Origin: Vermamoeba vermiformis
Lineage: Eukaryota
Direction of reading: 5' to 3'
NCBI GenBank assembly: GCA_045837725.1
Contig: JBEWZL010000006.1
Span: forward strand, 1 to 64,000
DNA length: 64,000 nt
Below, in pieces: positions 30,392 through 60,322 of the stretch (positions are counted from its first letter, which is position 1; each line of letters opens with the position of its first letter). Both the position numbers and the translations under genes were made by a program. The notes beneath the pieces are model-generated. The model worked only from the letters and a program-made list of their open reading frames with translations, did no database searches and was not told the origin of the DNA.

Positions 30392-33300
30392 ATGCCCACA
30401 GAGGTATTTCGATTGGGTAAGTTGCGGCTCCGATACACAACTGGTGCGGAGAGAATTGCATCAGGATTTAGCTAAACTTTGTATTTCCAGTGCTGTCTTC
30501 AATATTAATCTATGGAATTTTGCTTGAAGTAGTACCGATCGAAGGTAATCAATTTATTGCATCCGAAGAATTGGATTTAATTTTTAGTTTAGCGTGCTTT
30601 TCGTCCTTATTACTAAGAACACCTCGAGCCAATGTTGGTCTAGTAGTCAATGGTCCTAAAATTTATTTTGCTGGAGGAATTGATCAGCACCAAACCAGAT
30701 CGGACATTGTAGAAATATTTGACAGCTCGACAAGCACGTGGTCAACAATGAAAATTCCCGTAGCCCGCGACAAAATTGAAGCAGCTGCTGTTGGCTCGTA
30801 CGTTCTTTTTGCTGGAGGAATGACATCGGCTGGTCAATACAACAAAGTAGACATTTTGAACATCGACACTGGATCCATTAGCACGTTGGACCTTCCCTTC
30901 AGCTTCACAATAACGAATTCACTGATTGTCGGTTCTCAAGCTCTATTCTATGGAAGAGATAATGCAACAATTTTCGTCGTAGATCCGGCTGAACATTCGT
31001 TCTCGACAATCCAAAGTGTTGGCGGAGTTTGGAACGCTGCATCGAACGGAACGCACTTGTTTACTGCCAATCATCTTGTCGATGGAACTCGTACCAGTGT
31101 CTTTGTTTACGACAGTGCTGGCCTTCCACAGCGAGTCCACGAATGGGGTTTTATCAGTCGCTCCGTCGCCTTCTTTGTAACGCCACAAGCCTTCATATTT
31201 GTGCACCCGAACGCTGTCTCCTTGCAACCCTTAAATCCAGCGAGTGGAAGCGGTCCAACATACCGCAGTACTCACTCGCAAGTCTTAGCCCCAATAACCA
31301 TCGGAGAAGTTGTTTATTTGGTAGAGCCTAGTCGAATGAACTCGGTGGACACGCGCTTTGGACGAATCTCCAGATATGCAGCATCGGATTTTCAAATTCA
31401 CACAAGTTTCAAAGCAGTCGAGCTCAACGGAGTAATTTACTACGCTACGGAGGACGTACTAGAGCCAGTGATCAGCTTCAATACGGGGTTCTTGTTCCAA
31501 TCGATAGACCCAGGATTCCGACAAAGGCAGATCCCTTCTTTGGCGATTGGTGACTATCTTATTGCGCGTCGTCAACAGGCCGTGGACTATTATAACGTGC
31601 GAACTGGAGAACGAGGAGTGGCTAGCACGCTGTCAGAATCTATGCCCCTGGTGACCGTACGAAATTTCGTCATTTTTGCCAATCGCTTCCAACTCGACAT
31701 TCTGAACGTTCAAACGGGAGAGAGGAATCAAATAATACCTCCCAATGCGTTTATTCCGACGTCAGGCTCTGCATCGGACTCCAGTGGATTGGCAATGTTT
31801 GCCAACGAACAACAAGTCATGGTCTTCAACATTAGCAGCCACCTTTGGTTGCCTCTGTTCAGCTTCGAAGGGCCAGTTCGTCAATCGTTTGTGGCTGGCG
31901 AGACTATCGTTGGAATCTACCGCTCAGCCATTGAAACCATCAATGTTCGCACAAACGATCGACAGAGGTACCAGTTCACAGAACGCACAGAATTCACGCT
32001 GAAATTCAGCGACAGCTTAGTCGTGATTGCTGGTGGACGATTTACCGACAATCCAACTGTGACTGACGACGTGCTGATCGTAAACATTGACCAGGGCTCA
32101 AGCATAAATATTCAGCTGAGCGTTGGTCGTCGTAATGTGGCGGTTTCGATCGTCGACAATCGTGTAGTGTTTGCTGGTGGTCAACTTCAAAGTGGTCGTT
32201 TCTCTGACAGATTCGAGGTCTTTGACGCAGCAGGGTTGCATTGGGCGTACCCCCAACTCGACCTTCCCCCGCATTCTATTCTATCGCCAATACAAATAGC
32301 TTATGTTCAAGGCAGTCTATACTTGATCCGCAACAATAGAATGGACATCTTTGACGAGCACCCAATAGCAGCCCACAGAGTCGGCTTGTTCCAGTTCGGA
32401 AACGTTCGAGATATTCAAGTCTTTGGAAGCAAACTCATCCTAACGAGCACCACTGGCCCCGACGTACACCAGCTATCCTTATATGAAACCTCAACTAATG
32501 CGTGGTACAGCTACGAAGTCAACAGAGTTGGCACAGATGCGACGGACCCACTTCGGTTTGTTGGAATTGTGGCAGACCAGCTATATGCAAACACGTTTGC
32601 GAACGAACATCAAGTTATGCCGATCGCTGCTATGAAGAACAGATTGGAGAATATGCTGATAAAAGTTGATACACCGATGAACATAACAATCGAGGCTGTC
32701 GGCCCAGTCCTATCTACCCAGTGGACTCACAATGGACGCCTGCTGAACGAGACCTCTCTCAGCTTGCACACCAACGCTACAATCGACGACGAAGGTGTGT
32801 ACGTGGCTAGAATCATGGACCATTGCTCAACGCCAATGCAACAGCAAATCGGCGTGACCATCATCCGCCCTCCTGTCTTCTTGTCTGGACTTCAAGACGC
32901 ATACCGATTGTGCAACGAAACAGATTCTGCCTTATCTGTCAGTATTGGAGGTTATAGCATTTCAACAAGGTGGACAATTGACGGTCAGCCGTACGATCAC
33001 ATTAACAGCGTTGGTGGGCTTGTAACAATATCGACCATGGATATTGACAGCACTCTGCCTTGTGGGTTGTCACAGTTAGTGTGCGTTACTGCAAGCAATC
33101 CTTTGGGAAATGCTAGCATGTGCGCGCGGTTGACATCTTGGCATATCTCCCAAGTGTTCCATGGCCCTCTGATGTTAAATCAAGAGGACGTGATGTTTCT
33201 AGGGGATATAGCAAGCTTGGAAGTTTTTGTGCTCCGAAGCGAATGCTCAAATAATCACACGTGGCATGAAAATACCGAACCCCGATTCCAGAAATACGAC

Positions 33301-34871
33301 TATCATAGCGCAATTCCTGTAGTCATTGACCTCACAACATTCGAGAGAAATTACACAGTTCAAGTTCAATGCGGCAGCACAGTATTTACATCACCTCCCT
33401 TCACATTTCCCAGAGATCGCGTCCTTCTAATTAATCAAGTACTATTCATATTGTTTATATGCCTCGGTGGCGGCATTGTGGCAGCCCTGATCATAACGGC
33501 CGTTTTTGTTGCAAAACGAATGCGCCAAGGCCTTCATCACGAAGTAGAGCTCCAGCAGCTGCTCTCGCAGGCCAAGAACGAATCGTTGACTCACAAATCA
33601 GGCGTCAGTAGCAGCTGGTTGCCTACTGATGACTACACTTATCAACAACTGCACAATCTTTCATTTAACATCGATGCCTCGGAGTTGCTTTCTTGGAGCA
33701 AAAATGACCCGGTCAAAGTTGATGATTGGATCGAATGCACGCTCCTGTTTTCCTCAAAGAGCAAGAAACGCGACTCTACACCATCGATGAAAGAATCGCT
33801 GATCAAGGGATTGCCTATTAGCCTGTACACTCCTTCATCGCCAAAGTACGAAATCAACATCGAGCCGAGCAGTTTCAATATCGCGGATGGCGACACAGTT
33901 CACGTCAAGTTCTCCATCACGATGTTGATGACTGCAAAGTGCAATGTCAGCGTGATCATCGTTTGTGACAAAAAGAAAGTCTACTCCGTCCTTGAGTTCA
34001 AAATTGCCAGTAAAATGTCAATGTGGATCGACTTGGACGAGATCAAAATGAACGGAGATTACCTTGGCGGAGGAGGGTAAGTGCCTACTAGTCGTGAAAT
34101 ATTTCAAGCAAACTAAGTGCTTTTAGATTTGGCGCAGTCTATCGAGGAAACTACCGAGGGCAAGAAGTGGCCGTGAAACAGCTGTTAAATCAACATTTAG
34201 ACGACTACCTGAAGAAAGAATTCGAGCGCGAAATAATGTTAATGAAAGACTTGCGGCACCCTAACATTGTTCAATTTGTGGGTGCGTCCAAAGTGAAAGA
34301 TAATTTGGCAATCGTCATCGAGTTTGCTCCGCTTGGCAGCTTGTCGCGTGTACTCGAAGACCAAAAACTGTCGATTGCACTTAAGCTTACTATTCTTAGC
34401 GAAATTGCAAAGGCATTGCAATTTTTGCATGCCAATGGAGTGATACACCGAGACATCAAGCCGCAAAATGTGCTTGTCTTCTCACTCGAGGAACGAGCCC
34501 CAGTGCACATCAAACTGACCGACTTTGGCACATCAAGATTCATCACCGACGATCCCCAAACTATCACGAGAAACGTCGGAACGACATGTTATATGGCTCC
34601 AGAGGCATTAGGCCTCACCCCGAAGATCGACAAGAGTGCTGACGTGTACAGCTTTGCAATTTTGGCTTGGGAAGTTATGTACGAACAACAACCATTCAGA
34701 GATTTCAAATGGCAATCAGATGTCGAAGCCCACGTCAAGGTAGGAAACAGACTACCGTTTCCTGAAAATGCGAACAGTGAGTTCGTTAAGCTTGTCGAAG
34801 ATTGTTGGCACCAAGATCCTGCACAACGACCAACTATGGCCGTTGTTGCCCAGCGCCTAGCATTATTCTAA
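30392..34871 (+). CDS. Single-pass receptor kinase: signal peptide, Kelch-like propeller repeats, Ig-like domains, TM helix, juxtamembrane beta-domain, TKL-type kinase
   Basis: The spliced start is MPTEVFRLVLSSILIYGILLEVVPIEA (introns ~30417-30490 and ~30545-30591). Kelch motifs are IYFAGG, VLFAGG and VVFAGG; Ig motifs are QWTHNG...DEGVYVA and CVTASNPLG; the TM is VLFILFICLGGGIVAALIITAVFVA. The kinase has LGGGG|FGAVYRG, VAVK, HRDIKPQN, DFG, YMAPE and DVYSF intact. Confidence 0.9.
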
Positions 34872-42755: not shown

Positions 42756-43448
42756 TTAGAACGCTCCACCACGCAAGCGAAGGACCAAGTGGAGAGTGCT
42801 ATCCTTCTGCACGTTGTAGTCGGAGAGAGTGCGACCGTCTTCGAGTTGTTTGCCAGCGAAGATTAAGCGTTGTTGATCGCCAGGAATGCCTTCTTTATCA
42901 TGGATCTTTTGCTTGATTTGCTCAACAGTGTCGCTTGCCTCGACGTCCAAAGTGATGGTCTTGCCAGTGAGGGTCTTGACGAAGATCTGCATACCACCAC
43001 GCAAGCGAAGGACCAAGTGTAAAGTGCTATCCTTCTGCACGTTGTAGTCGGAGAGAGTGCGACCTTCTTCGAGTTGTTTGCCAGCGAAGATTAAGCGCTG
43101 TTGATCACCGGGAATGCCTTCTTTATCATGAATCTTCTGTTTGATCTGCTCAACAGTGTCGCTGGCCTCAACGTCCAAAGTGATTGTCTTGCCAGTGAGG
43201 GTCTTGACGAAGATCTGCATGCCACCACGCAAACGAAGGACCAAGTGAAGGGTGTTGTCCTTTTGGATATTGTAATCGGAGAGAGTTCTGCCATCCTCCA
43301 ACTGCTTGCCGGCAAAAATTAAGCGTTGCTGGTCTCCCGGAATGCCTTCTTTATCGTGAATCTTCTGCTTGATTTGCTCAACAGTGTCGCTGGCCTCGAC
43401 ATCCAAAGTAATAGTGCGTCCAGTAAGTGTTTTAACGAAAATCTGTAT
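42756..43448 (-). CDS. Divergent polyubiquitin (3 x 76 aa + AF); first codon is ATA
   Basis: 693 bp equals three ubiquitin units ending LRLRGG, plus AF and a stop. Unit 1 begins ATA CAG ATT TTC GTT AAA. Confidence 0.92.
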
Positions 43449-44320
43449 TTTTTTGTTTGTTCTTGTTCGCTTGTGTTGTTGTTTGGTTGTTGTTATTGAA
43501 ATGTTCGTCGTTCTCGAGAATATTTATCTTTTCGCCGGTCAAACTTTGGTCAAAGACCTCGTGATTTCTTCGAACACAAGGCATGTGATGAAGACGTTGA
43601 CTGCATAGCATGAAACGTATTAGAACGAACATCCCGATATGCTTCAGATATTTTGGCAGTAATCCGAACTGGAAGTGCAAGTCTTGGATGCGAGAGCTGC
43701 GCAGGAGGGCTTTCGAAGCAGATAGTCAAGGTAGATTCTTCGGTCAGCCACAGAGCCACTGTTCGTCTATTGAATGCTCACAGGTGATAGCTACGGGCCT
43801 TGGTGCGCTCGAGACCAAAGACTTTGACTAAGTTTGACCGACCCGAAAACAAGCTGTGGAGTGGCCCTTTTGAGGCCAGCGTCGTACTATACACGAAGTA
43901 ATTAAGTGTGATACCGTCTTGGTATTGGCAAGAGCGTACAAAGTCTTACGTACTGGTCTTACTCCGGGTGCATCCGCTTGTAGTCGCCCAGCTGAGGAAA
44001 TGGTTCTGAAAAGCTTTAAACTCTGCTTTAAACAGTTTTAGGAACGTTTGAACTTCGTTAGGCACTCGAATGATAGCAGTAATACTTCTCAGAAAATTTG
44101 AGATCCGACCAAGAATGGCCATCGGTAGTACTCAAAATCCGAGCACTCAACTCCGCTTATGATGTAACACGAATGAAGTGGCTATTGGCTTAAAGACTGG
44201 AAAATTCAACGTGAGGTTGGGGTTGTACCGGTTAATCATAAACATCCGCCCACGCCGAAGGAGCTTGTTTCTTACACCAATAGATAACAACAAAAACACT
44301 TTTATTCAGTCTTTCAAAAC

Positions 44321-47300
44321 TTAGAAGAGCGACAACAATTCATCAGCAAGTTCTTTTGTCTTTTGTGTGGTTTTCTTTGAAATGGTCACAGCGAGGGTCA
44401 AGTCCTTAGCCAAGCTCATGCATTGACCGTCATCAAAAATCTAATAAGAAGTCATTAGTGCCATGCCATATAAAATAGCCTTAGCTCATTTTTCTTACCA
44501 AGTTGCCCAAGGCAGCAAATGCACGATGAACGGCGTCTTCGTTTTGAGTGCCGTTCAAGAACTGAAGAATCGATTAGTAACCGCACATTAGACCTACTTT
44601 TATACTAAGCCCTTACCTCGTGAATGATAGCGACAGCTTGCACTTTAGCATGAGTGGCGTTCTGAGCACGGAACAAGATAGTATAGCTAAAAAATAGAAT
44701 TAGAAACGTGCCTTACGAATCGTCAGATCCAGATCCGAGCACTTACTTTAACAACAAGGTCGCAACTGCCACGCTCAAATTGTCCTTGCCGGCCCATTCA
44801 GTAGTAATGCAACTCAACAACTAGACAAGAGTTAGCACGGTTATTTCCTTATTAGGCAATAGTATGAAGACTACGTACTCTATCGCTGTATTGAAGCAAG
44901 AACTCGCGGAAAAAGTCCCAGCGGAACAAATTAGCGAAGAATCTGACGACCATCAATTGGTTGGGTCCCGGGGCAGTTCTGTTGCCGTGTTGAACCAACA
45001 ACTGGCCCAATGTGTCACGCATTGAAGGGTCGTTCAAAATCTTCGCGGCGCTTTGGTTCAACGCCAACAATCTCAACACATCGATAACTAGGGCGAAATT
45101 TCGTTAGCCGTGAAGTTTTGGTGAACGTGCGAAAGACTTACGAGGGAAGGTCTTGTCGTTAGGGAATTGACCCAACAACTTGAAGACAAAGTTCAACTCG
45201 TCAGCGGTGACTTGACCGTCCTTGAGCTTGTTGATCACAGAGTCGAGGTGAGCCATTTCTGATTCAGGAACGCCTTGGCCCTATCGCACAACATATCAGT
45301 CAACGCTCGGTCAATGAAATAACCTTTTAACACTTACAACTGCGAGCAACTCGGTGTTAATTTGTTTAATCTTAGTCAAGATAGCGGCAGGGTTGGCAGC
45401 CTCGAAGAAGACGTATTGGGTCTGCAAATGACAAGATTTAATCACGTGTCACGAAATTTCACAAATGTCAACTTACGTGAGGAATGAGTTTCAGAGAAAC
45501 ATTGCGATAAGCAGGAGGAATATATCTGCTATCTGAACACGTGATTAGTAAAGAGGTCACGGGAATTACTAAATAAGGCAAGTCAAGGATTGAATAGTGT
45601 ACGTACTAGTGAACGGAATGTCTTGCATCTGTTGCTGACCAATCTCAACAGGCTGAACAGTCTTCATAATAAATCGTGCAATTTCTTCGAGGTGATCTTG
45701 GTTGATCATTTCTTGGTGAATAAAGTTCTGTGCGGACAAATAAGGATTATCTCCGGCGTTGTGTCCTAATTTAGCCATTCTTCCGTCACCCAAATCGACA
45801 TCGAGAACTATTGGCATTTTAAAACAAAATTAGTTCACTCCTTCCAAAAAAGGAAAATTCCGTAGGAAAGCACGTGGAAAGCACTTACCATAATCGTAGC
45901 TCTTGCCGTTCAATTGCTTTTTACTGCCAGGTTTGTCGGCAGCATCGACAATATCGCCGAACTGTCCCACATGTTAATCACGTGCTCTAATGACCATAAA
46001 TAGCAAGTACGACTTACCTTGACCCAACGTTGACCAACACCGTCCCAGTGATACAACTCAGCAGTGTCGCCGTTACGAACCATTTTGTGTTCACCTTCAC
46101 GAGTGCCAGGAACGCCCAAAGCTTCGTGACCGGGCAGCTGGTCTAACTTCAAATCACCGACAGCGCCGGTCGCGTGCTTGGGAATGACACGTTGTGACAA
46201 TTGTTTCTCGTAGGCCAACAATTCAGAGTCGGGAAGTGATCTGAAAACAATACTGTTAGCACGTCCCTGGCTCAATTAATTGACTTGAACATACCTTGAA
46301 GGGTCCTTAGTCCAGACACGAGCAACACTGTCTTGGCAACCACTTGACAAACAGACCGTTAGTTCAACTGCCAAAGGGCATCATATTGTGACAAGTACTT
46401 ACGAAACAACGTCTCCATTGTCCAACACAGCAACGCTCCAAACACCAGTCGGGTGCATCAACACTTGCACACTTTGGCTGTCTGTATAATGTGTTAATAA
46501 TAGTGCGATTTTGCCTCGTGTAATTAACTCGACGTACCCTTCCAGACGCGGACAGTGCTGTCCTCACTAGCGCTGATAAGTGTGTGGTCATGGTGGTTGT
46601 ACACTGTTTGAAACACAAAGTTCTCGTGACCGTGCATCTCACTGATGCATTCGCCGTCGTAAGTCCACATGCAAATAGTGCTAAAAAGAGCTGTTAATAT
46701 CAATGCTATAGGTCCTATATTCATTATAGTCCTTACTAATCGTTCGAGCACGAGACGAATCCGAAGCCCGGAACTTCAGCCAAGCCACGAATGGTGTCTG
46801 TGTGCTTTTGCAGGGTCTTAATGCATTGACCTTCGGGAGTGAAAATTTTGATAGTTCGATCACCAGAGCCTAATATAGCGTTAGAATATATTCCATTTAA
46901 TGTACTAATTTGTTAAAATATGAATTATTATGAGGCTTACCGGTGACGATGTTTCCATTAGGCAAACACAATACACCCCACACAGGGGCAGTGTGGCCTG
47001 ACAGCACTTTAATGCACTTGCCACCGCGCCAAATACGGGCAGTACTATTTATAGAAATAAATATTAGCAAAGGTTGATTCATCGTTGGAAAGACGTACTT
47101 GTCAACAGATCCAGAAACAATGTCAAAGTTGGGCATAATGGAGAAGCACAGGACTGCATCTTCGTGTCCTAATATGGTAATATTTAGCGCTGTTCATGAA
47201 CTGATTTTTCGTCGCCGGATCTAGCCTTACCAATTAACGTCATCGAAGGCTCATGACCACCTTCCAAATCCCAAATAAGAATCATCTTGTCATATCCTCC

Positions 47301-47874
47301 GGATACAATAGCACCAGCTGTATATACCGGATGACCGGGCTTAATATAAGCAATAGCTCCAACACCAGCGCGAGATCGAGTTTGCTGTTAGGCGAAAAAT
47401 TAGTTTTTGAAATTTGGAGTAATTTAAATTGCATGCAACAATAAATATAATATTTTAATGGATGATTATGAACGAAATTGACCACAAACAGCGTTAGATC
47501 TGGAAAGGAAAAATATTGAAAAAAAATTCGTCAAAATTCAAAGACTAAATTTAATGAACAACAGATCGTCATAAAATAGCTTCGATGTTTATAAATATAT
47601 ACCTGATGACCAGATAAAATTTTTTGGGCTTCATAGGCACCGTTTACTTTGTGCCAAACTCGGATGGTAGCATCTCGTGAACAAGTTGCAAATCGATCAC
47701 CATCTAACGCACATACGCCTCTGATCTATATTTAAAATTTAATTATCAATATTTTGCAAAATTATTAGCGCTCGTTAATTTTCAAACGAGATTGACTGGC
47801 AAAGACTTACGTCGGATTCGTGACCGAAGCATTCGGCAGCTAACTGATAATGATCCTTAACCTTGTTGTTGCAT
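44321..47874 (-). CDS. PLAA: Phospholipase A2-activating protein / Doa1-Ufd3 (WD40 + PFU + PUL)
   Basis: WD40 repeats include GHESD|VRG, TCSRDATIRVW, GHTAPVWGV, GHENFVF and HPTGVWSV. The PFU region is LDVDLGDG...DNPYLSAQNFI, and the PUL region is FP|IDVLRLL...HRAFAALGNL. There is an apparent +1 indel right after the ATG. Confidence 0.92.
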
Positions 47875-48028
47875 TCTTGATAGAATTGAGTACTAAATTG
47901 AACAGAACAAATTTTTGTCAGATGTTGACCTGGTCAATATTTTTTCACAAACGAAAAAGCCCCGTTTCTTTTTATTTTACTTTGAATGAGCACCATATTG
48001 CTATTTCAATAAGTTTCAGTACTCCCAA
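47875..48028. promoter_or_regulatory. Putative bidirectional promoter PLAA / pseudokinase-GNAT copy 1
   Basis: Divergent start codons are about 154 bp apart. Confidence 0.55.
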
Positions 48029-50182
48029 ATGGATCGATATGAAACTGTCAAACCGTTGGGCAACGGAGATTCGTCATTGCTTGTTCAACGAAAGGCTGAT
48101 AATGAACTCTTCGTTTGCAAAAAAATTACATACTCGAGTATTGATGATGCAAATAGAGGTTTGCAAGGAGTAAGCATCAAAACTATAAATAACGACATAG
48201 CCAAAATTAATTTGTATTTATTTATTTTTCGTATTAGGCTCTCTCGTTAGCTCGATTTAGCAGTGAGTTTGTTACACATTATGAAGATATATTTTTTCAT
48301 ATTAGAGAAGATAATAGTAAGTTCTTTGATACGAAATTTTCAAAACTGTTCAATTAACTGCCGAAACACAATACTTACCGTCATATAATAGATTCTACTG
48401 TATTTGATTTAAATTTGGTAACTGAATATTGTTCTGCCGGATCCCTATGGAACAAGCTACTTAGCAAGCGAGATCGCGAAACTGACGTGCTGGATTTCGT
48501 CCCATTAGTCGTATGTCGCAAAATCAATGCTATTAGAATGACGTATGTTAAAATAATATCCTCAACATAGACAGCAGAGAAATGGATAGTCCAGCTTTGT
48601 AAAGGACTCAAATCCGTGCACCAGCTGAAAGTCGTTCATAGAGACTTGAAGAGCGAGAACATATTCCTCAACTCACACGATGATATTAAAATTGGTAAAT
48701 TCGGATTAGCAACCCTAACAAACACCGAGAAGGTAAGCTCAATAACACGTGCTGGGATCTAACTTGCTAACCCTGTGCTACAGAAAGAATCAACTTCACG
48801 GTTCTACACTGCACCGGAAATGATCAATACCGCCGAGTATAATATTAAAACAGATATATGGTCCCTCGGATGTGTCTTATTCGAGATCAGCACGAGTCGT
48901 TTGTTGCCAGTCGACAAGATCAATTTCAACGAGTTATTAAGTAAAGGAGGAAAAGACACCCTTATAGAAACAATAAGAAAATACTTTTCGAAGGTATTAA
49001 CACCTATATTGCTTATTTAATGAGGTACATTTACTTAACTGAAAATTTTCAGGATCGAGCGCATCTGCTTGCTCTCGTTGAATTTATATTAGAGCCCGAT
49101 GCAGCCAAGCGACCAGATATCGATCAAATTCTAGCCCACGAGTTCTTCAACAACTACAAGTTACAATCATTCAAGGCTAAGGAACTTCAAGCCCACAGTC
49201 TTGCGAAGATTGACGTTAACTTCCAAGACGGCATTGTGCGTCAACTGAACAAGAGTGATTTTGACGTGACATTAGACATGATGTCACAAGAACTCTTTAA
49301 CGAACCTAGAATGCGATTCTTATTCTCAAAGGATGACAACAAGCGAAGAAAGTTCACGAGAGTAAGTTACTCTAAAAATATCAAACGGCCTTAACCTTTA
49401 AACAATAGATTTTTCTCAACGCAATGTTGCAGTTGAATGCCCAGCGAGGTAACAATACATGGGGTCGTTTTGCCCCTGATGGGAAATTGCAGGTAAATAC
49501 CAAGTCAATCAACATCTCAGATGATGATATCGGTGCTGATTTTACATTAGGCCGCGGCAGCTTGGTTTCCTCCCGATCGTACTTTGCGACCCTCGGTGGC
49601 AACAATGGCAAAAGGTAATAATAATGATAATAGAGCCAATTATATATGGTCTTGATACTAACCTCGTGATAATGTCAGTGGGCTTTGAGAATCTAGGGGA
49701 CTTTCTGAAGATCGGGCCGAAAGTAGGCCTAAGAATTCGTGCTCTATTAGAAAATATACAAAAGATGATCGAGGCTGAATTCCCGGACAATTGTTGGATC
49801 TTGTTTTACGTCGCTGTGAGCAACCAGTTTCAAGGCAAGGGCATTGGCCGTCACTTACTCTCACATGTCCTAACAGGTATGTTTATACATCTACCCGGCA
49901 CTCCCTTCATAATGTATTAATATGGCTATAGTGGCTGATTATCATGGCCAAGACTGTGGTACGATTTGCTTCGATGGACACGGGGTTGAATTTTTCAATA
50001 AGCTCGGGTTCCAATTACACAAAATGATTCCAGTGCCACTCAAAAACATGCCTAATTGCCCGCCTTGTCAATTGTTAATTAGGAGAGCTCGAAATGATAT
50101 CGATCATTCGTTGACGCCTCAATCTTCGTCTGATAATTTAACTTCATCCAAAAAGAAGCGCCACTCGAAGAATGTGCTATAA
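48029..50182 (+). CDS. NEK-like pseudokinase fused to a C-terminal GNAT acetyltransferase, copy 1
   Basis: The kinase part has MDRYETVKPLG, FVCKKI, LVTEYCSAGSL, HRDLKSENIFL, IKIGKFG, YTAPE, TDIWSLGC and KRPDIDQILAHEFF. The same frame continues to AAAWFPP, WILFYVAVSNQFQGKGIGRHLL and VEFFNKLGF. Confidence 0.88.
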
Positions 50183-50477
50183 TCCGTGTATAATAAGTGA
50201 GTAAATAATTATTTATTTGTTTAGGTCGAAATTTAATATTCCGGTACACAAAACTTTTTCATGAATATTTTTGTTTACGGTCGGCAGAACACAAGTGTTA
50301 TGAAACCTCACTTTATTATTTATTTACACGTTAATCATTAAACAGATACACTTATTTTTTTGGACAGTGTCTTACGGCGGTGCATCGAAGGTTCCTAATG
50401 ACACCCTGCCAAATTTAGGAACAAAGTATACGACAACTTCAGACTTTAGTTAAAACATTATCGAACAAACAGCACCA

Positions 50478-52714
50478 ATGGAACGCTACGAAATTATCAA
50501 ATTATTGAACGAGGACGCAACTGGATCCTCTTGTTTAGTGCGACGCAAAGCTGACGGACAGCTATTAGTGTGCCGAAAAAATATTTACTCGAACATTGAT
50601 GAAGCAAATAAGGGGCTACAAGAGGTACGGCATAGCACAGCGTCGAGAAAATTATCCAAGCTAATTACTTTTTTGACTTCAGGCTCTATCCCTGTCTCGG
50701 TTCAACAGCGAATTTATCACACAATACGAAGACTTTTTTCTTCATATAAGACAAGAAGAGAGTAAGCTACCAAACTTTACGTTCGCGGGCCGCGCCCATC
50801 CGAATTGTTTATTTCTAACACAACTATCCGGATCTGCTAACTATCGATGTTATACTTAGATAAGTCTCTCTTCGAATTGAATTTGGTACGAGAATACTGT
50901 GCCGGAGGAACTTTAAGAGACAAACTTAATGGAGCACGTGAACGTACCAACGGCGATTCACACTCCGAACCAGATCTGCTCCCATCACTTGTAAGTACCA
51001 TTGAATGATGCTATATGATTTAACATAGCATGTAGTTAGTAGAAAGATGGATTGGCGAGCTGTGCAAAGCATTGAAAGAAGTACATTCGGTACGCGTGAT
51101 CCACGGCAACTTGAACAGCGAGAACATCTTCTTGACATCGCACAATAATATCAAAATTGGCGACTTTGGTCACGCAAGATCAAAAGATTCAAGCGAGGTA
51201 CGTAACTGCAACTAAATTTAGCGAAACATTGTTGATGACACGTGTCAACTTTTAGAACACGAAGACCAAGTACTACTCAGCGCCAGAAGTTTATCACGAT
51301 CAAGATCGATCGTACAAATCAGACGTGTGGTCACTAGGATGTATCATATTCGAGATTAGTACCAGCAGAATTCTCGACGTCGAAGATATCAATTTCAACG
51401 ACCTGCTTGAACAAGGCGGCAGTGACCTCCTCAAAGACATGCTTCGAATATTCTTTCCTAGGGTAAAGCTAATAGTCAATCCTGATGTATACTAATAACA
51501 TATAATGTAGAATCGAGCACATATCTTGAGTTTAGTCGAGTTAATGTTAGAGCCAGATCCGTCCAAAAGACCATCAATGGAAGAAGTTCTGAAGCATGAA
51601 TTCTTCGAAAGATGTACGCTACAATCGTTGAAAGTTAAAGAACTGAGCCACTCTTCGTTTGAGAAGCTCGACGATGAACTAAAAGGTAATAATCTTGTCG
51701 CTATTTGGAAAGTCGTACTTTGACACGTGTCATTTAGACGGCATTGTCAGAATTCTTTCCAAAAGCGACGTTGATGCCACGTTGAATCTGATGGCACAAG
51801 AACTGCACAATGAGCCACGAATGAGGTTTCTATTCTGGAACAAAAAAGATGCTGAACGGCTAGAATTAACAAAGGTAAGGAATATTACTTAATCACTGAA
51901 TAGTACTAACCTATCTTTCACAGTTGATAATGAAATACATGGTTAAGTTTTGTGCCAAAAAAGGAAATCATTTGTGGGGCCGTTTCGACGCCGGCGGCAA
52001 ACTTCAGGTACGTCAAGAACTTATTCTTTTATTATTTTATCTAACAATCGAGAAGGCGGCAGCATTGTGGCTCCCTCCCAATCGAGATCTGAGACCATCA
52101 ATCTCCAGATTAGTTCGAGGTAAGTTCCAATCAACATAACATCGTGCATATTGAGTCTTATATTTGCTCTAGCTGGCTTGGAAAACATTCGATCGTGGAT
52201 CGTGAAGATAGGCCCGAAAGCGTCGCTCAAAATAATGATGCTGATAGATTTCTACGAGAAATTAGCGTTGAATGATTTGCCCGAAGATTGTTGGATATTA
52301 ATGCACATAGCTGTAGAAACTGATTTGCAACGTAAAGGATTAGGCCGGCATTTATTATCGGAGATTTTCAAAGGTAAGCTTACCCATGACCCGTGTGAAG
52401 TGCTATGTTCGTGCAACTTTTTCTTAATACTAATGACTCACTATCAATATGTAGTGGTGGATTTTGATGGTCAGTGCTGCGCTACACTGTGTTTTGACAA
52501 TCATGCCGTAGAATTCTTTCTTAAGCTCGGGTTTTCGCTCGTCAAAACCATCGCTGAACCCATCAAATCTATGCGAGATTGTCCTTCGTGTCAATTACTC
52601 ATCAGGAGGCCTCGTGTTGATATTGATAGATCTTTAAGCCCTAGAAACTCTTCTAATGATATTTTGACCCCAAGAAAGAAGCACGCATCGAAACGACCCT
52701 CATTTGTGCTCTGA
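50478..52714 (+). CDS. NEK-like pseudokinase fused to a C-terminal GNAT acetyltransferase, copy 2 (tandem paralog)
   Basis: The kinase part has MERYEIIKLL, VCRK, EYCAGGTL, HGNLNSENIFL, IKIGDFG, YSAPE and SDVWSLGC. The GNAT part has AAALWLPP, WILMHIAVETDLQRKGLGRHLL and VEFFLKLGF. The exon layout is largely shared with copy 1. Confidence 0.88.
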
Positions 52715-52890
52715 TCTCAAGCAAGATGGTGTGAAGTAAACTGTAAATTTGCCAAAGAATTACTCATATGAACTAATCGAGCTCTGCGCTGCCTTAATAC
52801 TGCAATCGGATCCATTGTGGTGTCATATTTTGTGTTCAAAAATTTTCATTTTTACGTAAACTCAAACCAAGCTCCAACAAATCTCAGACT

Positions 52891-55997: not shown

Positions 55998-58900
55998 ATG
56001 GAGATAGTCAGCAAAATACAGCAATTCACAGATGAAGATCTGACGAAGTTGCTGGGGAAGCTTACAAAGGTAAAGATAAATTGTGACATCATAAAAATAA
56101 CTATGCCTGATAATAACTAGATGGCACGGCGCAATTATTCGCGTTGAAATAATTAAATTAATTTCGGAAGATTTTTTTGACTTTTCCTTCAACAGATCTT
56201 GCTGCGTAATGACCAAAATTTAGAGAGACTTCATTAATAATTTTTATTATTTTCCTTTTGATTGTCTAAACGATTAATTATTGCTTAACAGCGCATTTAA
56301 TTTTTCAACACCTCGATTATTATGGCGCTTCAAATGCTAATTCTAACATTTATTTATTACTTAGCTATTAGACTCGAGCGATAATTTAAAGAGCACAGAA
56401 ACAGCAAATACATTGAGGAGCATATTTCAAGTTCTTAATGCTCGACCAAACGAATTTGATATTCCCGACGATGTAGTCCAAAAAATGTACGTATAATATA
56501 CGCTAAATAGTGTTTGTCATATGATTTTCTGCTTAAATTACGCATCTAAAGTTTTTCGAATGAATTCGCGGCACATTCATTTCTCAGCATTATTTATCCC
56601 TACTATTTCATACAATTATAATGATTGATATAATAAGCCCTTGTAGCCGTCATCTTAATTATTAATAATTGTCCTATTACAGCTACTTCGCAGTGGAAGA
56701 CGAAAAAACACCACTCAAAACACGTGCTCTGTGTGCATTTGTGCTGAATGAATTGATCTACGGAGACGTTTCGTTCTTGAAAGAAAAGTATGTATTGATT
56801 ATAGTCCTCGCCTATTATCCATATCATAAATATTACTCGATCCGATGCATATTGGAGTAGTAAACACGAGTTCAAACACACGGAAACTAAAATTAATCAC
56901 TCTTTTTTAGTTTGCGACAGTATAAAAAGCACTATCTGACAGCAATATTGCCATTGTTACTATCACTCGGCACGCAAGACTGTTATCAATCCAATTTGAA
57001 CAACATTATTTACTGGATCTCCGCCGAGGATTACAGTTTAAGAAGCAGCACATTACCAGCAGTAGTCCATATGGGTACGTATGATAAACACTATATGTGC
57101 CGGGAACTATATGTGCGATATTTCGAAAAGCCATAATGACTAATATGGGCCTCTATTTTTAGCTCGCAAGTACCCCACAATGTTGCAATACAAAAAACAC
57201 TTGAAGCCAATAGAAGCACAAATGCTCAAATGGCTCATTAGCGCCAGCACTGTATCGGCCAAGCCCAACGCTGCAGGTGGTTTACGTAAGTACTAGCATT
57301 AAGTGTCATCGAATGGCACGTGTCAACTTTTGACACTTCTAGAGCACGTGTCACGAACTAACGCACCTTCATACTAGTGCTCAAATTGAACATTTCTAAG
57401 CCTATTCCCGTCACTGAAATGGATGGCTCGCCGTCACGTGATTTTTTCACGGTGTTGAATATCTCACAATTGTACACTGAAGACCAAGTGTTCAACATTC
57501 ACGCGTTTTCAATGCTGTTCACATGGCTCCAATTATTGTATCATAATCGAAAGAACGAATTGTACAGCACTATCAAACGAACAAAATCAGATGCGAATTT
57601 GATCAGCAGTCCTGTAGCGAGCCCTGGCGGACCACCACCTGAAAGTATGTATAATACAATATCATTTGCTTATTAAGAGTCCGGGGTCTATCAAGAAATG
57701 TCATTAATTTTCCTTTTAGGCAATCCAAGCGATCAGAATGACAGCGCAAGTACCCCGACAGAACTATACAGGTATGTCACTTCAAACGAAAGGCATTTAG
57801 AGCATGATATTAACGGTGCTATTTTTAGACTGGACTTTGACTTCCAAGAGAATTTAATCAAGTACTGTCTCCGAGTGATCGATCAGGCTAAAATCAAATT
57901 GCCTAATGTGGACAACGCGGCAAAGTCACTGCAACAAACTAATAGAGAAGTCGCTGATATAGCTATGCTTGAATCAATTAGAGTGTTGGACTCATTGTGC
58001 TCGCTCGATGAAGCATTGGTACGCTTTCAGTGAAAATTTTTACACTTGCCTTATTTGGTAATTGACTAAATAATTTACAGGTGCCCAAATTGTTTCCAAT
58101 TATGAAGAAACTTTTCAATATTATCAAAGCACGATCAGTCGCTGAAACAACGAACACTTCACAGTCCTCAAATTCTTCACAAATGAACCTCAGTTATTCT
58201 CCTGCGATTGAACGGATTGGCGGGCTAATAGATTTAGCGCTTTTGCAATTCTTTTTGAATCACAGCGAGAAAGTCGTTTATGATCCTGAACCTTTGTTCA
58301 GGTCATACTTTGAGACCTGCCTCAGCAACAACTGTAAGTATTTCATGTGATACTTTTCCATATACTCTTTGTACTCCACGGTCACAGACGAAATAATGTC
58401 ACGTGGTTTACTTTGCAACTATTCTAATTGTCAATTTGATTAGATAAGGACCCTGTCTTGGCATTCGAAACATTGAACTTTTGCGCACAAAACAAAGTCG
58501 CGCTATTGAACAATACTATAGTCTTTCAACGATACTTCCCGCCCCTGATGAAACTTTATGCTTGGCACCCGACTGATTTTTACACGTACGTAGTTTTAGA
58601 ATGACACTTTGACACCTGTCATCCCCAAGTTTGTACCCAATATTTTGACAAATCATCAATCGTTTAATGATATCCATAGTTGTACAATATAATAGATGCC
58701 TAATATAATACGTTTTCATAGTGAGATTGAAGAGTTGTTCCCTGCATTCATCGGGCCATCGACCTACATGGAGCTCTTCCACTCGATTTTGGACTTGCCG
58801 TTACTCGCAGCCGCTTTAGAACGAATAGAATACGAACGAGGTACGTCGTACTTATCAATACTTCATATGCTTTAATCTTCGAGAAGAATTTGCACTCGTG

Positions 58901-60322
58901 TCGATGCATGTCTTTTGCTAATATTTCCTGTGAATTAAAGATGAGGACATTGTCTCAACATCATCAAGTCTCACGGCCTCGACGACCTCAAGTGTACCTT
59001 CATCTCCGCTGCCTTCAGCGCACTCGTCAATGTCTAATATTCCGCCGTTAAGTGCAATCACAACACCTACCAAGTACCCTTCACTTTCACGCAACGCTAG
59101 TATTAGCAATTTTGACTCGTTAATGTCACCTGGCCAACTGCCACGGCCTCATTCAAGTACGTCACTTTACTTTATGAGAACAAATTTTTTAATTGTTGGT
59201 ACTGTCAGACGTTGAAGTGTCAGCTGATTGGTACCGCAACAAGTACCGTGTGTTGTACAACTATCTCTTGCGTAACGAGAGTGGTGTTACAATCAACTTT
59301 TGGGACTCATCGACGACATTAGGACTCATCACAAATTTCTGCAAGGTAAGACTTAGAAAGTGCTCGCGTCGTACTCGGAACTCAAATTGCCTTATTAGGA
59401 AATTTCCATCTCGCCACGAACACAACTCGTCTCGAAACAAGCTATCACACTGCTACACTTGTATTTTGACGTGTTGATTGCTTATGGCGACGAAAGAGAC
59501 TTGGAGTCAATGGTCCCTATTATGCTCGAACGAATGGACCAGCTGTTCCCGCTCGAAGCATATCAAGACCAGATCCGCAAAGTGTTAATCGAGAAGATTG
59601 TCGCCATATTCGAGAAATGCCCTACATTCGTTTACACGCTGAAGAAGTGGATTGTTATGATGATGAATGACAGTGGCGTCAATCGACAGCGCGAAGAGTT
59701 AGTGTTGCATTTGTGCTGGTTGATCGGCGAGTACTGCCAGCCCAATGGCCCTGTTGGCCCTCAAATCATGCACGATTATGAAGAAGTGAGTGCCTTTGCA
59801 TAGTTACGCATGAGCTTTTACTAAACTTTTTTTAGATGCTCGAGTTGTTCGCTTTTGAGCGAATGTCACTAGCAAGTATGACAGCCAACCAAGACACAAG
59901 CGATACAACTGTCGAAGGACAATATCAACTAAACGAGATTAGGTAAGATAATAAGGAAAGCTACGCGAACATTAGGATTGACACGTTTCACTTTCAGATA
60001 CAACAATCGTGTCATGTCAGTGGTTATCAACAGTTTGACAAAGCTAGCTGCACGATGGCAACCCCTTACTAGTCGTGTACAGCTTTGTCTCCACAAGATC
60101 TTGCGTTACAAGAACTATTTCTTGCCGTCAGTCATTTCGCACGCCAATCTGTGCCTCAACTTGCTCAAGTCTCCGAGCATCGCTGCGTCAATCCTCGATT
60201 CACGGCACCGAACAGAACTTGCTACAAGCCACGTAGACACCAACTCTTCTTTACCATTTTTGTTAAGCGACACTTCTGACCTCGTGGCTGGTCGCAAAAT
60301 TCACGAGTTCGGAAATTGGTGA
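55998..60322 (+). CDS. AP5Z1: AP-5 adaptor complex subunit zeta-1, multi-exon
   Basis: Motifs include VTEMDGSPSRDFFTVLN...TEDQVFNIHAFSMLFTWL, LLQFFLNHSE, FPPLMKLYAWHP, ELFHSILDLPLLAAAL, LCWLIGEY, LTKLAAR and LNLLKSPSIA. Confidence 0.9.

What the first reader, a model, noticed from the sequence alone, without database searches (positions are those of the whole stretch)
48029..52714. Tandem NEK-like pseudokinase-GNAT acetyltransferase fusions with different catalytic lesions
Seen: each gene encodes a NIMA/NEK-like kinase fold that runs in frame into a GNAT domain with an acetyl-CoA motif A (QGKGIG / QRKGLG). Copy 1 keeps HRDLKSEN but reads KFG for DFG (AAA at 48697-48699, at least two substitutions from Asp, so not a single-base error). 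Copy 2 keeps DFG but reads HGNLNSEN for HRDxKxxN (from 51102). Both Gly-loops are degenerate, while reading frames and splice sites look intact. Known: loss of the DFG Asp or HRD Asp defines pseudokinases. The GNAT pattern (AAxWxPP...W.L..xAV...QxxGxG...FFxKLGF) resembles puromycin-N-acetyltransferase-like small-molecule GNATs. Inference: a dead kinase domain may have been repurposed as an allosteric or nucleotide-sensing regulator of an acetyltransferase, with catalysis lost independently in each copy and possible heterodimerisation. I do not know of a characterised eukaryotic protein with this architecture.
Basis: partly seen in the sequence, partly recalled or inferred. Interest (0 to 1): 0.8.

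Follow-up and report, generated by a model that had tools for sequence, protein, structure and literature searches.

The report
Tandem dead-kinase–acetyltransferase fusion genes
Two neighbouring genes of an unidentified intron-rich eukaryote each join a NEK-like protein-kinase domain that has lost key catalytic residues to an acetyltransferase domain; the combination is conserved, transcribed and apparently not yet described.

Summary
Two head-to-tail genes (48029-50182, 10 exons, 538 aa; 50478-52714, 11 exons, 548 aa) each encode a kinase-like domain, a 26-residue linker, a GNAT domain and a basic tail in one frame. Copy 1 reads HRD and KFG. Copy 2 reads HGN..N and DFG, and probably Arg for the beta3 Lys.

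Spliced contigs from two public runs confirm 6 of 9 and 8 of 10 modelled introns and carry both lesions unchanged.

A syntenic orthologue of copy 1 (L001) also has Lys at the DFG-Asp site. dN/dS between the two is about 0.1 in both domains. A third lineage (L002/L003) has the same fusion with HRD and DFG intact, so the losses were independent.

Profiles of the two C-lobe exons hit NEK1/NEK7/NEK2 best. The GNAT subfamily is unresolved, and the likeness to puromycin acetyltransferase was not significant.

The family is very rare: 3 hits among 1.84 billion representative proteins. Four paper searches found no description of the architecture.

A regulatory or docking role for the dead kinase is inferred, not shown. 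Two copy-2 contigs are spliced unproductively.

The parts
48029..50182 (+). Copy 1 coding region, 10 exons: 48029-48169, 48238-48316, 48392-48510, 48571-48732, 48784-48993, 49053-49361, 49409-49492, 49551-49614, 49679-49876, 49932-50182 (538 aa)
   Evidence: Open frame after splicing, all introns GT-AG and 47-75 nt. Introns 2, 3, 4, 6, 7 and 9 are seen as joints in spliced contigs.
50478..52714 (+). Copy 2 coding region, 11 exons: 50478-50624, 50683-50761, 50860-50990, 51036-51197, 51256-51462, 51511-51685, 51738-51874, 51924-52007, 52056-52119, 52173-52373, 52455-52714 (548 aa)
   Evidence: Open frame after splicing. Introns 2, 4, 5, 6, 7, 8, 9 and 10 are seen in contigs. Intron 3 is seen only with an acceptor 4 nt downstream. 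Intron 1 is not listed.
48029..49151 (+). Copy 1 kinase-like domain (exons 1-5 and the start of exon 6, ending at the H-E-F-F motif)
   Evidence: Pkinase on exon 4 (55.9 bits) and exon 5 (37.2 bits). Family profiles hit NEK1, NEK7 and NEK2 best.
48119..48121 (+). Copy 1 presumed beta3 Lys (K31, in V-C-K-K)
   Evidence: Manual alignment of the models; no tool alignment was obtained.
48637..48645 (+). Copy 1 HRD, intact (HRDLKSEN)
48697..48705 (+). Copy 1 KFG in place of DFG (AAA at 48697-48699)
   Evidence: The Lys aligns to the Asp of DFG in EGFR and GCN2. The same Lys is in orthologue L001. It is unchanged in RNA contig X1 record 1.
49227..50092 (+). Copy 1 GNAT domain (end of exon 6 to exon 10, through L-L-I-R-R)
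   Evidence: Acetyltransf_1 at 23.7 bits and Acetyltransf_7 on exon 9. Generic GNAT hits in the PDB.
49831..49848 (+). Copy 1 acetyl-CoA motif A, QGKGIG
   Evidence: Q, K, G, G and the following RHLLS are invariant in all 4 family members.
50150..50161 (+). Copy 1 basic cluster KKKR in the C-terminal tail (NLS-like; inference)
50574..50576 (+). Copy 2 Arg at the presumed beta3 Lys position (V-C-R-K)
   Evidence: Manual alignment of the and models
51102..51125 (+). Copy 2 HGNLNSEN in place of HRDLKxxN
   Evidence: X2 contigs cover it with no listed difference.
51162..51170 (+). Copy 2 DFG, intact
52328..52345 (+). Copy 2 acetyl-CoA motif A, QRKGLG
51746..51800 (+). 55 nt inside copy-2 exon 7 that one X1 contig splices out (GT..AG), shifting the frame to a stop before the GNAT domain
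   Evidence: tables 5 and 5c. The 8 letters placed between the joint sides equal the first 8 nt of exon 7.
51036..51039 (+). First 4 nt of copy-2 exon 4, skipped in the only contig across intron 3 (acceptor 51039/51040), which puts TAG in frame
   Evidence: joint 50990 to 51040, X2, depth 2.8

Best explanation
These are two expressed, tandemly duplicated members of a small, lineage-restricted family of NEK-like kinase-GNAT fusion proteins. The ancestral protein probably had a working kinase, because a third lineage keeps HRD and DFG. In both window copies the kinase half has become a pseudokinase by different routes. Copy 1 lost the metal-binding Asp of DFG (now Lys) and probably the alphaC Glu. 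Copy 2 lost the catalytic Asp and Lys of HRDxK and probably the beta3 Lys. The GNAT half keeps its acetyl-CoA loop and is the likely catalytic output. The conserved but dead kinase fold most likely acts as a docking or regulatory module: it would either hold the acceptor protein as a kinase holds its substrate, or gate the GNAT. The basic S/T-P-rich tail suggests nuclear targeting. Shown here: the architecture, the lesions, transcription and splicing, conservation, and purifying selection. Inferred: GNAT activity, the regulatory or docking role, and localisation.
For: The gene models are open with canonical introns. Pkinase and GNAT hits fall on separate exons of one frame. Exon 6 of copy 1 is a single open exon that runs from kinase subdomain XI into the GNAT N-terminus. 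One X1 contig joins copy-2 exons 5, 6 and 7, and an X2 contig joins exons 7-11. RNA depth is 0 across 50224-50555, so the two genes give two transcripts. L001 is collinear with window 46535-50071 at 71% nucleotide identity, including the upstream WD40 gene. L001 reads HKD and K-F-M. For g1 versus L001, amino-acid identity is 76% and dN/dS is 0.096 overall: 0.12 in the kinase half and 0.065 in the GNAT half. The N-lobe is 81% identical and the GNAT 80%. All 9 copy-1 intron positions and phases recur in copy 2 and in L001. L002/L003 carry the same fusion with HRDLKSEN and DFG. dN branch lengths are similar: g2 0.218, L003 0.168, g1 tip plus stem 0.184. The motif-A residues are invariant in 4 of 4 members. 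NEK1 is the best hit for the exon-4 profile, and the 16 best chains for the exon-5 profile are all NEK: NEK7 (one of them a chain named as a PKR-kinase fusion), NEK1 and NEK2. The criterion that lacking K72, D166 or D184 marks a likely inactive kinase is from PMC3218828 (passages).
Against: There is no biochemical evidence. Copy 1 keeps HRD, the catalytic-loop Lys and Asn, and the presumed beta3 Lys, so atypical metal-independent catalysis is not excluded. The GNAT subfamily and acceptor are unknown: only the motif-A exon matches any GNAT model, and the last exon and the N-terminal GNAT exon match nothing. No full-length fold could be made, so the N-lobe assignments are manual. For copy 1 the contigs do not cover 48989-49179, so the kinase and GNAT parts are joined by the open exon rather than by one RNA record. 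For copy 2, the only contig across intron 3 and one contig across exon 7 are unproductive forms. dS is near saturation, which makes the ratios rough.
Confidence: 0.5

Rival explanations
1. One or both copies are bifunctional enzymes with an atypical but active kinase. Copy 1 would work without the DFG Asp, with the Lys side chain standing in for a metal ion, and would phosphorylate and acetylate the same target.
For: Copy 1 and L001 keep the catalytic Asp, the catalytic-loop Lys and Asn, APE and the presumed beta3 Lys. The whole kinase half, N-lobe included, is under constraint as strong as that on the GNAT. The third lineage has canonical HRD and DFG. From recall: some kinases that lack the DFG Asp, such as CASK, still transfer phosphate.
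Against: L001 has also lost the Gly of DFG (K-F-M) and reads HKD. Copy 2 lacks the catalytic base, the loop Lys and probably the beta3 Lys. The N-lobe exons are too divergent to match the kinase model.
Confidence: 0.2
2. Copy 2 is on its way out. It is transcribed but mostly spliced unproductively, so it is a decaying duplicate or one kept low by unproductive splicing, and only copy 1 matters.
For: The only contig across intron 3 uses an acceptor 4 nt downstream that puts TAG in frame. An X1 contig removes 55 nt from exon 7 and shifts the frame. Copy 2 has the most catalytic lesions and the longest dN branch, 0.218.
Against: All 548 codons are open and all 10 introns are canonical despite saturated synonymous divergence from copy 1. 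The dN branch is only about 1.2-1.3 times that of the others. The motif-A and GNAT core residues are kept. The contigs have depth 2.8-4.2, and 2 joints and 18 pieces were not listed.
Confidence: 0.15
3. The whole protein is a non-enzymatic scaffold: the GNAT half is also catalytically dead and only binds acetyl-CoA or a partner.
For: Only motif A matches GNAT models. The position before K-L-G-F, where many GNATs have a Tyr (recalled), is Phe in 4 of 4 members.
Against: The acetyl-CoA loop is invariant and the GNAT half has the lowest dN/dS, 0.065. Many active GNATs lack that Tyr (recalled).
Confidence: 0.1
4. The fusion is a gene-model artefact: separate kinase and GNAT genes were wrongly merged.
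For: X1 contigs leave 48989-49179 of copy 1 uncovered.
Against: Kinase subdomain XI and the GNAT N-terminus lie in one open exon in copy 1 and in L001. A single contig links copy-2 exons 5, 6 and 7. The same arrangement holds in 4 of 4 loci. There is no stop, and no room for a promoter, between the halves.
Confidence: 0.03

Closest known systems
NEK (NIMA-related) kinases, including the mostly inactive Nek expansion of Giardia (PMC3218828, passages seen)
   Same: The kinase domain sits at the extreme N-terminus. Profiles of the catalytic-loop and activation-segment exons match NEK1, NEK7 and NEK2 best. Key catalytic residues were lost after duplication, as in 139 of 195 Giardia Neks.
   Different: No NEK is reported with a GNAT domain; 'acetyltransferase' occurs 0 times in that paper. 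Orthology to a NEK subfamily could not be tested. The N-lobe is too divergent to match kinase models.
AAC(6')-Ie-APH(2'')-Ia, the bifunctional aminoglycoside resistance enzyme (described in GNAT review PMC4964394, passages)
   Same: One polypeptide carries a GNAT acetyltransferase and a kinase-fold domain.
   Different: It is bacterial, with the GNAT at the N-terminus. Its kinase-fold half is an active small-molecule phosphotransferase (APH), not a protein kinase. No sequence relationship was found here.
GNATs fused to sensor domains: M. tuberculosis Rv0998/MtPatA (cyclic-nucleotide-binding domain plus GNAT; PMC4964394) and actinobacterial ACT-GNAT (PMC6434083, abstract)
   Same: An N-terminal ligand-binding domain is fused to a C-terminal GNAT and regulates it allosterically. 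This is the model for how a dead, possibly nucleotide-binding kinase fold could gate the GNAT.
   Different: The regulatory fold is different and these enzymes are bacterial. Regulation of the GNAT is not shown for the window proteins.
Puromycin N-acetyltransferase-like small-molecule GNATs (PDB 7k09)
   Same: Both have an I-G-P element upstream of motif A. The weak alignment covers the matching region (query 8-58 to chain 90-144).
   Different: The hit is not significant (E 1.1) and is missing from the profile search at E<=1. Membership is not shown.

Membership tests
Eukaryotic protein kinase superfamily (Pfam Pkinase PF00069) | Match to the Pkinase model above its gathering score | tested here: met
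   copy 1 exon 4 scores 55.9 bits and exon 5 scores 37.2; copy 2 exon 4 scores 42.1 and exon 5 scores 34.8 (cut-off 31.7). N-lobe exons alone: 0 of 6 match.
Catalytically competent protein kinase | Presence of K72 (beta3 Lys), D166 (HRD Asp) and D184 (DFG Asp); criterion quoted from PMC3218828, | tested here: not met
   In copy 1 D184 is Lys. In copy 2 D166 is Asn, the loop Lys is Asn, and the K72 position reads Arg by manual alignment. Both are therefore filed as pseudokinases.
NEK family | Closest similarity to NEK kinases among all kinases | tested here: met
   This was tested at exon-profile level only. For A5 the best hit is NEK1 (7.5e-15), followed by an EGFR tandem chain, GCN2 and NEK7. 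For A6 the 16 best chains are all NEK: NEK7 (one of them a chain named as a PKR-kinase fusion), NEK1 and NEK2. Single-sequence searches were mixed.
NEK family | Placement inside the NEK clade in a full-length kinase phylogeny | not testable with these tools
   Spliced proteins could not be handed to the search tools, and no reference kinase set lies in the script box.
GNAT superfamily (Pfam Acetyltransf_1 PF00583) | Match to a GNAT model, and the acetyl-CoA motif A Q/R-x-x-G-x-G/A | tested here: met
   Copy 1 exon 9 scores 23.7 bits against a cut-off of 20.7. Copy 2 exon 10 scores 19.4 bits, E 1.3e-3, just below it. The motif is present and invariant in 4 of 4 members. PDB profile hits are an IAA acetyltransferase (4.4e-4) and RimI (1.5e-3).
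GNAT superfamily | Complete GNAT fold (beta1 to beta7 with the V-shaped acetyl-CoA cleft) | not testable with these tools
   The domain is split over 5 exons, and structure prediction takes only unspliced translations. The last exon and the N-terminal GNAT exon match no model.
Puromycin N-acetyltransferase-like GNATs | Significant sequence similarity to PAC (PDB 7k09) | tested here: not met
   E is 1.1 at 12.8 bits, and PAC is not among the 21 hits at E<=1 with profile A3.

The most novel reading that the evidence does not exclude
The family is an ancestral bifunctional protein kinase-acetyltransferase that writes two marks on one target. The third, intact paralogue would still do so. The two tandem pseudokinase copies would have become ATP- or partner-sensing acetyltransferases that also pair with, and regulate, the active paralogue. 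That would make it a eukaryotic module coupling phosphorylation and acetylation in a single polypeptide.
Probability: 0.15. Interest if true: 0.75.

Novelty: new variant of a known kind. Interest (0 to 1): 0.55.

Why it matters
Pseudokinases usually act on other kinases or serve as scaffolds. A dead kinase fold permanently joined to a different enzyme would be a clean natural case of a kinase fold re-used as a regulatory or targeting domain. The family offers three states of one protein for comparison: intact motifs, loss of the DFG Asp, and loss of the HRD Asp. If the intact lineage is active, it would couple phosphorylation and acetylation in one polypeptide. The limits are that the host is an unidentified, poorly sampled eukaryote, and that odd domain fusions are common in protist kinomes.

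Tried and rejected
**Searches for relatives**
- The search for homologous proteins found nothing with copy-1 exon 6 ('longer') or with the copy-2 motif-A exon ('longer').
- With exon 4 ('near') it found one protein, which is the L001 exon.
- No full-length annotated relative was therefore available to fold or classify.

**Sequencing runs**
- No RNA holder was listed by the look-up of sequencing runs.
- The raw RNA runs X5 and X7 laid 0 reads, which is no test.

**Resources that were not available**
- No genome is held for the window.

**Uninformative searches**
- The ESM Atlas was uninformative for both the RPA1 piece and exon 6 (best score 0.87, unnamed clusters).
- The bacterial and archaeal genome scan with the motif-A profile gave one locus, L004. 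It is a chance 11-residue pattern match inside an unrelated ORF on the other strand, so no bacterial GNAT donor was identified.
- NCBIfam gave only generic motif-A matches far below the cut-offs.
- The PDB gave nothing for exon 1 or for the last-exon profile.
- Rfam and tRNA scans of the window were empty.

**Literature**
- Paper searches, and look-ups, found no kinase-GNAT fusion.
- Supplements were not consulted.

**Not run**
- Structure and complex prediction were not run. They accept only unspliced window translations, and every domain here is split by introns. Heterodimerisation therefore remains untested.

**Taxon**
- The taxon was not resolved.
- The short CTAAC-containing introns first suggested a fungus.
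- However, CDK5RAP3 and AP-5 zeta are present in the window, and from recall most fungi lack them.
Full report
**What is in the sequence**

Reading 47950-52800 and splicing by coordinates gives two genes on the + strand. They are separated by 295 nt.
- Copy 1 spans 48029-50182, with 10 exons and 538 aa.
- Copy 2 spans 50478-52714, with 11 exons and 548 aa once the RNA-supported acceptor at 52056 is used.
- All 19 introns are GT-AG and 45-98 nt long.

Pfam on single-exon translations (10 exons) gave these results:
- Pkinase scored above its cut-off on exons 4 and 5 of both genes. It gave a weak hit on copy-2 exon 6.
- Acetyltransf_1/_7 matched the motif-A exon of both genes. Copy 1 scored 23.7 bits against a cut-off of 20.7. 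Copy 2 scored 19.4 bits (E 1.3e-3), just below it.
- Three exons gave nothing real.

Each protein has the same layout: a kinase-like domain of about 275 aa, a 26-residue linker, a GNAT region of about 215 aa, and a Ser/Thr-Pro-rich basic tail (KKKR in copy 1, RKKH..KRP in copy 2).

In copy 1 a single open exon (49053-49361) runs from kinase subdomain XI into the first GNAT strand and helix.

**The catalytic lesions**

| Site | Copy 1 | Copy 2 | L001 | L002/L003 |
|---|---|---|---|---|
| Gly-loop | G-x-G-x-x-S | unrecognisable | S-x-G-x-x-T | not on contig |
| beta3 Lys position | V-C-K-K | V-C-R-K | V-C-K-K | not on contig |
| presumed alphaC Glu | Gly | Glu | Gly | not on contig |
| HRD loop | HRDLKSEN | HGNLNSEN | HKDLKSEN | HRDLKSEN |
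| DFG | KFG | DFG | K-F-M | DFG |

- The AAA codon at 48697-48699 in copy 1 aligns with the Asp of DFG in EGFR and GCN2.
- HGNLNSEN in copy 2 starts at 51102, and its DFG lies at 51162-51170.
- The Gly-loop, beta3 Lys and alphaC rows rest on my manual alignment of the models. The N-lobe exons match neither Pfam Pkinase (0 of 6) nor any PDB chain.
- A kinase lacking K72, D166 or D184 is likely inactive (PMC3218828, passages). By that criterion both copies are pseudokinases.

**Transcription and splicing**

No listed run is on record as RNA. However, contigs of two runs (X1, X2; 5 of 6 laid contigs in each are at least 99% identical to the window) carry 15 listed GT..AG joints. This shows that they derive from spliced RNA.

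Copy 1:
- 6 of 9 introns are confirmed exactly (introns 2, 3, 4, 6, 7, 9).
- Exons 2-5, exons 6-8 and exons 9-10 are each linked on one contig.
- The stretch 48989-49179 is uncovered.

Copy 2:
- 8 of 10 introns are confirmed (introns 2, 4, 5, 6, 7, 8, 9, 10).
- One contig links exons 5, 6 and 7, which joins the kinase part to the GNAT part.
- Another contig links exons 7 to 11.

Depth is 0 in both runs across 50224-50555, so the genes give separate transcripts.

The contigs carry the lesions unchanged. X1 record 1 covers 48571-48730 with its only difference at 48609. X2 covers 51054-51219 with no listed difference.

Two results run against a simple picture of copy 2:
- The only contig across intron 3 uses an acceptor 4 nt downstream (51039/51040). 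This places TAG in frame.
- One X1 contig removes 51746-51800 from exon 7, which shifts the frame.

Both contigs are shallow (depth 2.8 and 4.2). Two joints and 18 pieces were not listed.

**Relatives**

The family is very sparsely sampled.
- phmmer with exon 6 against 1.84 billion representative proteins found 3 hits. All are exon-sized ORFs that read into introns.
- Three word-indexed searches found nothing, or only the L001 exon.
- A metagenome scan gave three loci.

L001 is the orthologue of copy 1.
- It is collinear with window 46535-50071 at 71% nucleotide identity, including the upstream WD40 gene on the other strand.
- Its spliced model has the same 9 intron positions and phases.
- It reads HKD and K-F-M, so the Lys at the DFG-Asp site is old.
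- Against copy 1, amino-acid identity is 76% and Nei-Gojobori dN/dS is 0.096. The kinase half gives 0.12 and the GNAT half 0.065. dS is 1.2-2.1, so these ratios are rough.
- The N-lobe is as conserved as the GNAT, at 81% and 80%.

L002/L003 are a third lineage.
- They are partial, running from the HRD exon to the tail.
- They carry the same fusion with HRDLKSEN and DFG intact.
- They share with copy 2 one intron that copy 1 lacks.

dN branch lengths on the 378 shared codons are 0.218 for g2, 0.168 for L003, and 0.184 for g1 tip plus stem. Copy 2 has therefore not drifted freely.

**What kind of kinase and what kind of GNAT**

Single exons gave mixed best PDB hits. Exon 4 hit GCN2, NEK1, MAPK and BRAF. 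Exon 5 hit PRP4, DYRK2, ULK4, NEK2 and NEK7.

Profiles built from the four family members are clearer.
- The exon-4 profile hits NEK1 best (7.5e-15), with NEK7 next after an EGFR tandem chain and GCN2.
- The exon-5 profile's 16 best chains are all NEK: NEK7 (one a chain named as a PKR-kinase fusion), NEK1 and NEK2.
- 'NEK-like' is therefore supported at this level. Clade membership is untested.

For the GNAT, only the motif-A exon matches anything, and those matches are generic.
- PDB hits are 1u6m, an IAA acetyltransferase and RimI.
- NCBIfam gives RimI and AAC(6') models far below their cut-offs.
- Puromycin N-acetyltransferase (7k09) appears only at E 1.1 and not in the profile search.

Motif A (Q/R-x-K-G-x-G-R-H-L-L-S) is invariant in 4 of 4 members.

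**Surroundings**

The neighbours are ordinary housekeeping genes:
- polyubiquitin at 42759-43523 (-)
- a PLAA/Doa1-type WD40-PFU-PUL gene immediately upstream (-)
- an EF-hand gene downstream
- NIP7, AP-5 zeta, LUC7 and RPA1
- further upstream, a Kelch-repeat ORF followed by a TKL-type kinase ORF, plus LRR genes, CDK5RAP3, Sec16 and an actin-family gene

Nothing suggests a metabolite cluster or a mobile element.

The organism is not identified.

**How it most likely works**

Shown here: a conserved, transcribed, two-domain protein whose kinase half lacks canonical catalytic residues, yet is under purifying selection as strong as that on the GNAT half.

Inferred:
- The GNAT is the catalytic module.
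- The kinase fold serves as a docking or gating domain. The model for this is sensor-GNAT fusions such as Rv0998 (PMC4964394, passages) and ACT-GNAT (PMC6434083, abstract).
- The basic tail may target the nucleus.

The intact third lineage suggests that the ancestor was a working kinase-acetyltransferase.

A heterodimer cannot rebuild one active site from the two sets of lesions. Pairing with the intact paralogue is possible but untested.

**Novelty**

Searches of the held literature found no kinase-GNAT or pseudokinase-GNAT fusion (look-ups). The nearest known same-polypeptide case is bacterial AAC(6')-Ie-APH(2'')-Ia, which has the reverse domain order and a small-molecule kinase.

I could not run an InterPro architecture query, and supplements were closed. 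Independent fusions elsewhere are therefore not excluded.

I rate this a new variant of known kinds: a pseudokinase, and a GNAT with a fused accessory domain. It is of moderate interest.

Noticed in passing
window 30472-34868 (+): A 1202-aa open frame with Kelch repeats near its start is followed directly by a 257-aa frame that is a complete TKL-type kinase domain (PK_Tyr_Ser-Thr, 2e-55). This is probably one large, nearly intron-less Kelch-kinase gene, in contrast to the intron-rich neighbours.
   Followed up: no
window 18421-20939 (-) and 57362-60319 (+): CDK5RAP3 (UFM1 pathway) and AP-5 zeta subunit genes are present. From recall, most fungi lack both. This argues against the fungal origin that the short CTAAC-containing introns first suggested.
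   Followed up: partly
L003 828-890 versus window 49362-49408 and 51875-51923: In the third-lineage gene, the intron that follows K-x-T-R in copies 1 and 2 is absent. An intron sits 22 nt (7 codons and 1 base) further downstream in phase 2, which looks like intron sliding or loss plus gain.
   Followed up: partly
window 51030-51042: Three AG dinucleotides lie within 9 nt at the copy-2 intron 3 acceptor (TAGTTAGTAG). The homology-supported acceptor is the first. The only RNA contig uses the second, which gives an in-frame stop.
   Followed up: partly
window 49934-50098 and 52457-52621 (last exon): Cysteines are conserved in the last GNAT exon: C-x3-C-F-D and a C-P-x-C element just before L-L-I-R. 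Three Cys are invariant in 4 of 4 members and the fourth is Ala in L003. This could be a metal or redox site, and it is not typical of GNATs as far as I recall.
   Followed up: no
window 49753-49767: Seven differences are clustered within 15 nt near the end of one X1 contig (35-49 letters from its end), while the rest of the contig is nearly identical. This could be an allele, a paralogue or an assembly end effect.
   Followed up: no
window 42759-43523 (-): A polyubiquitin gene with at least three head-to-tail ubiquitin units in one open frame.
   Followed up: no
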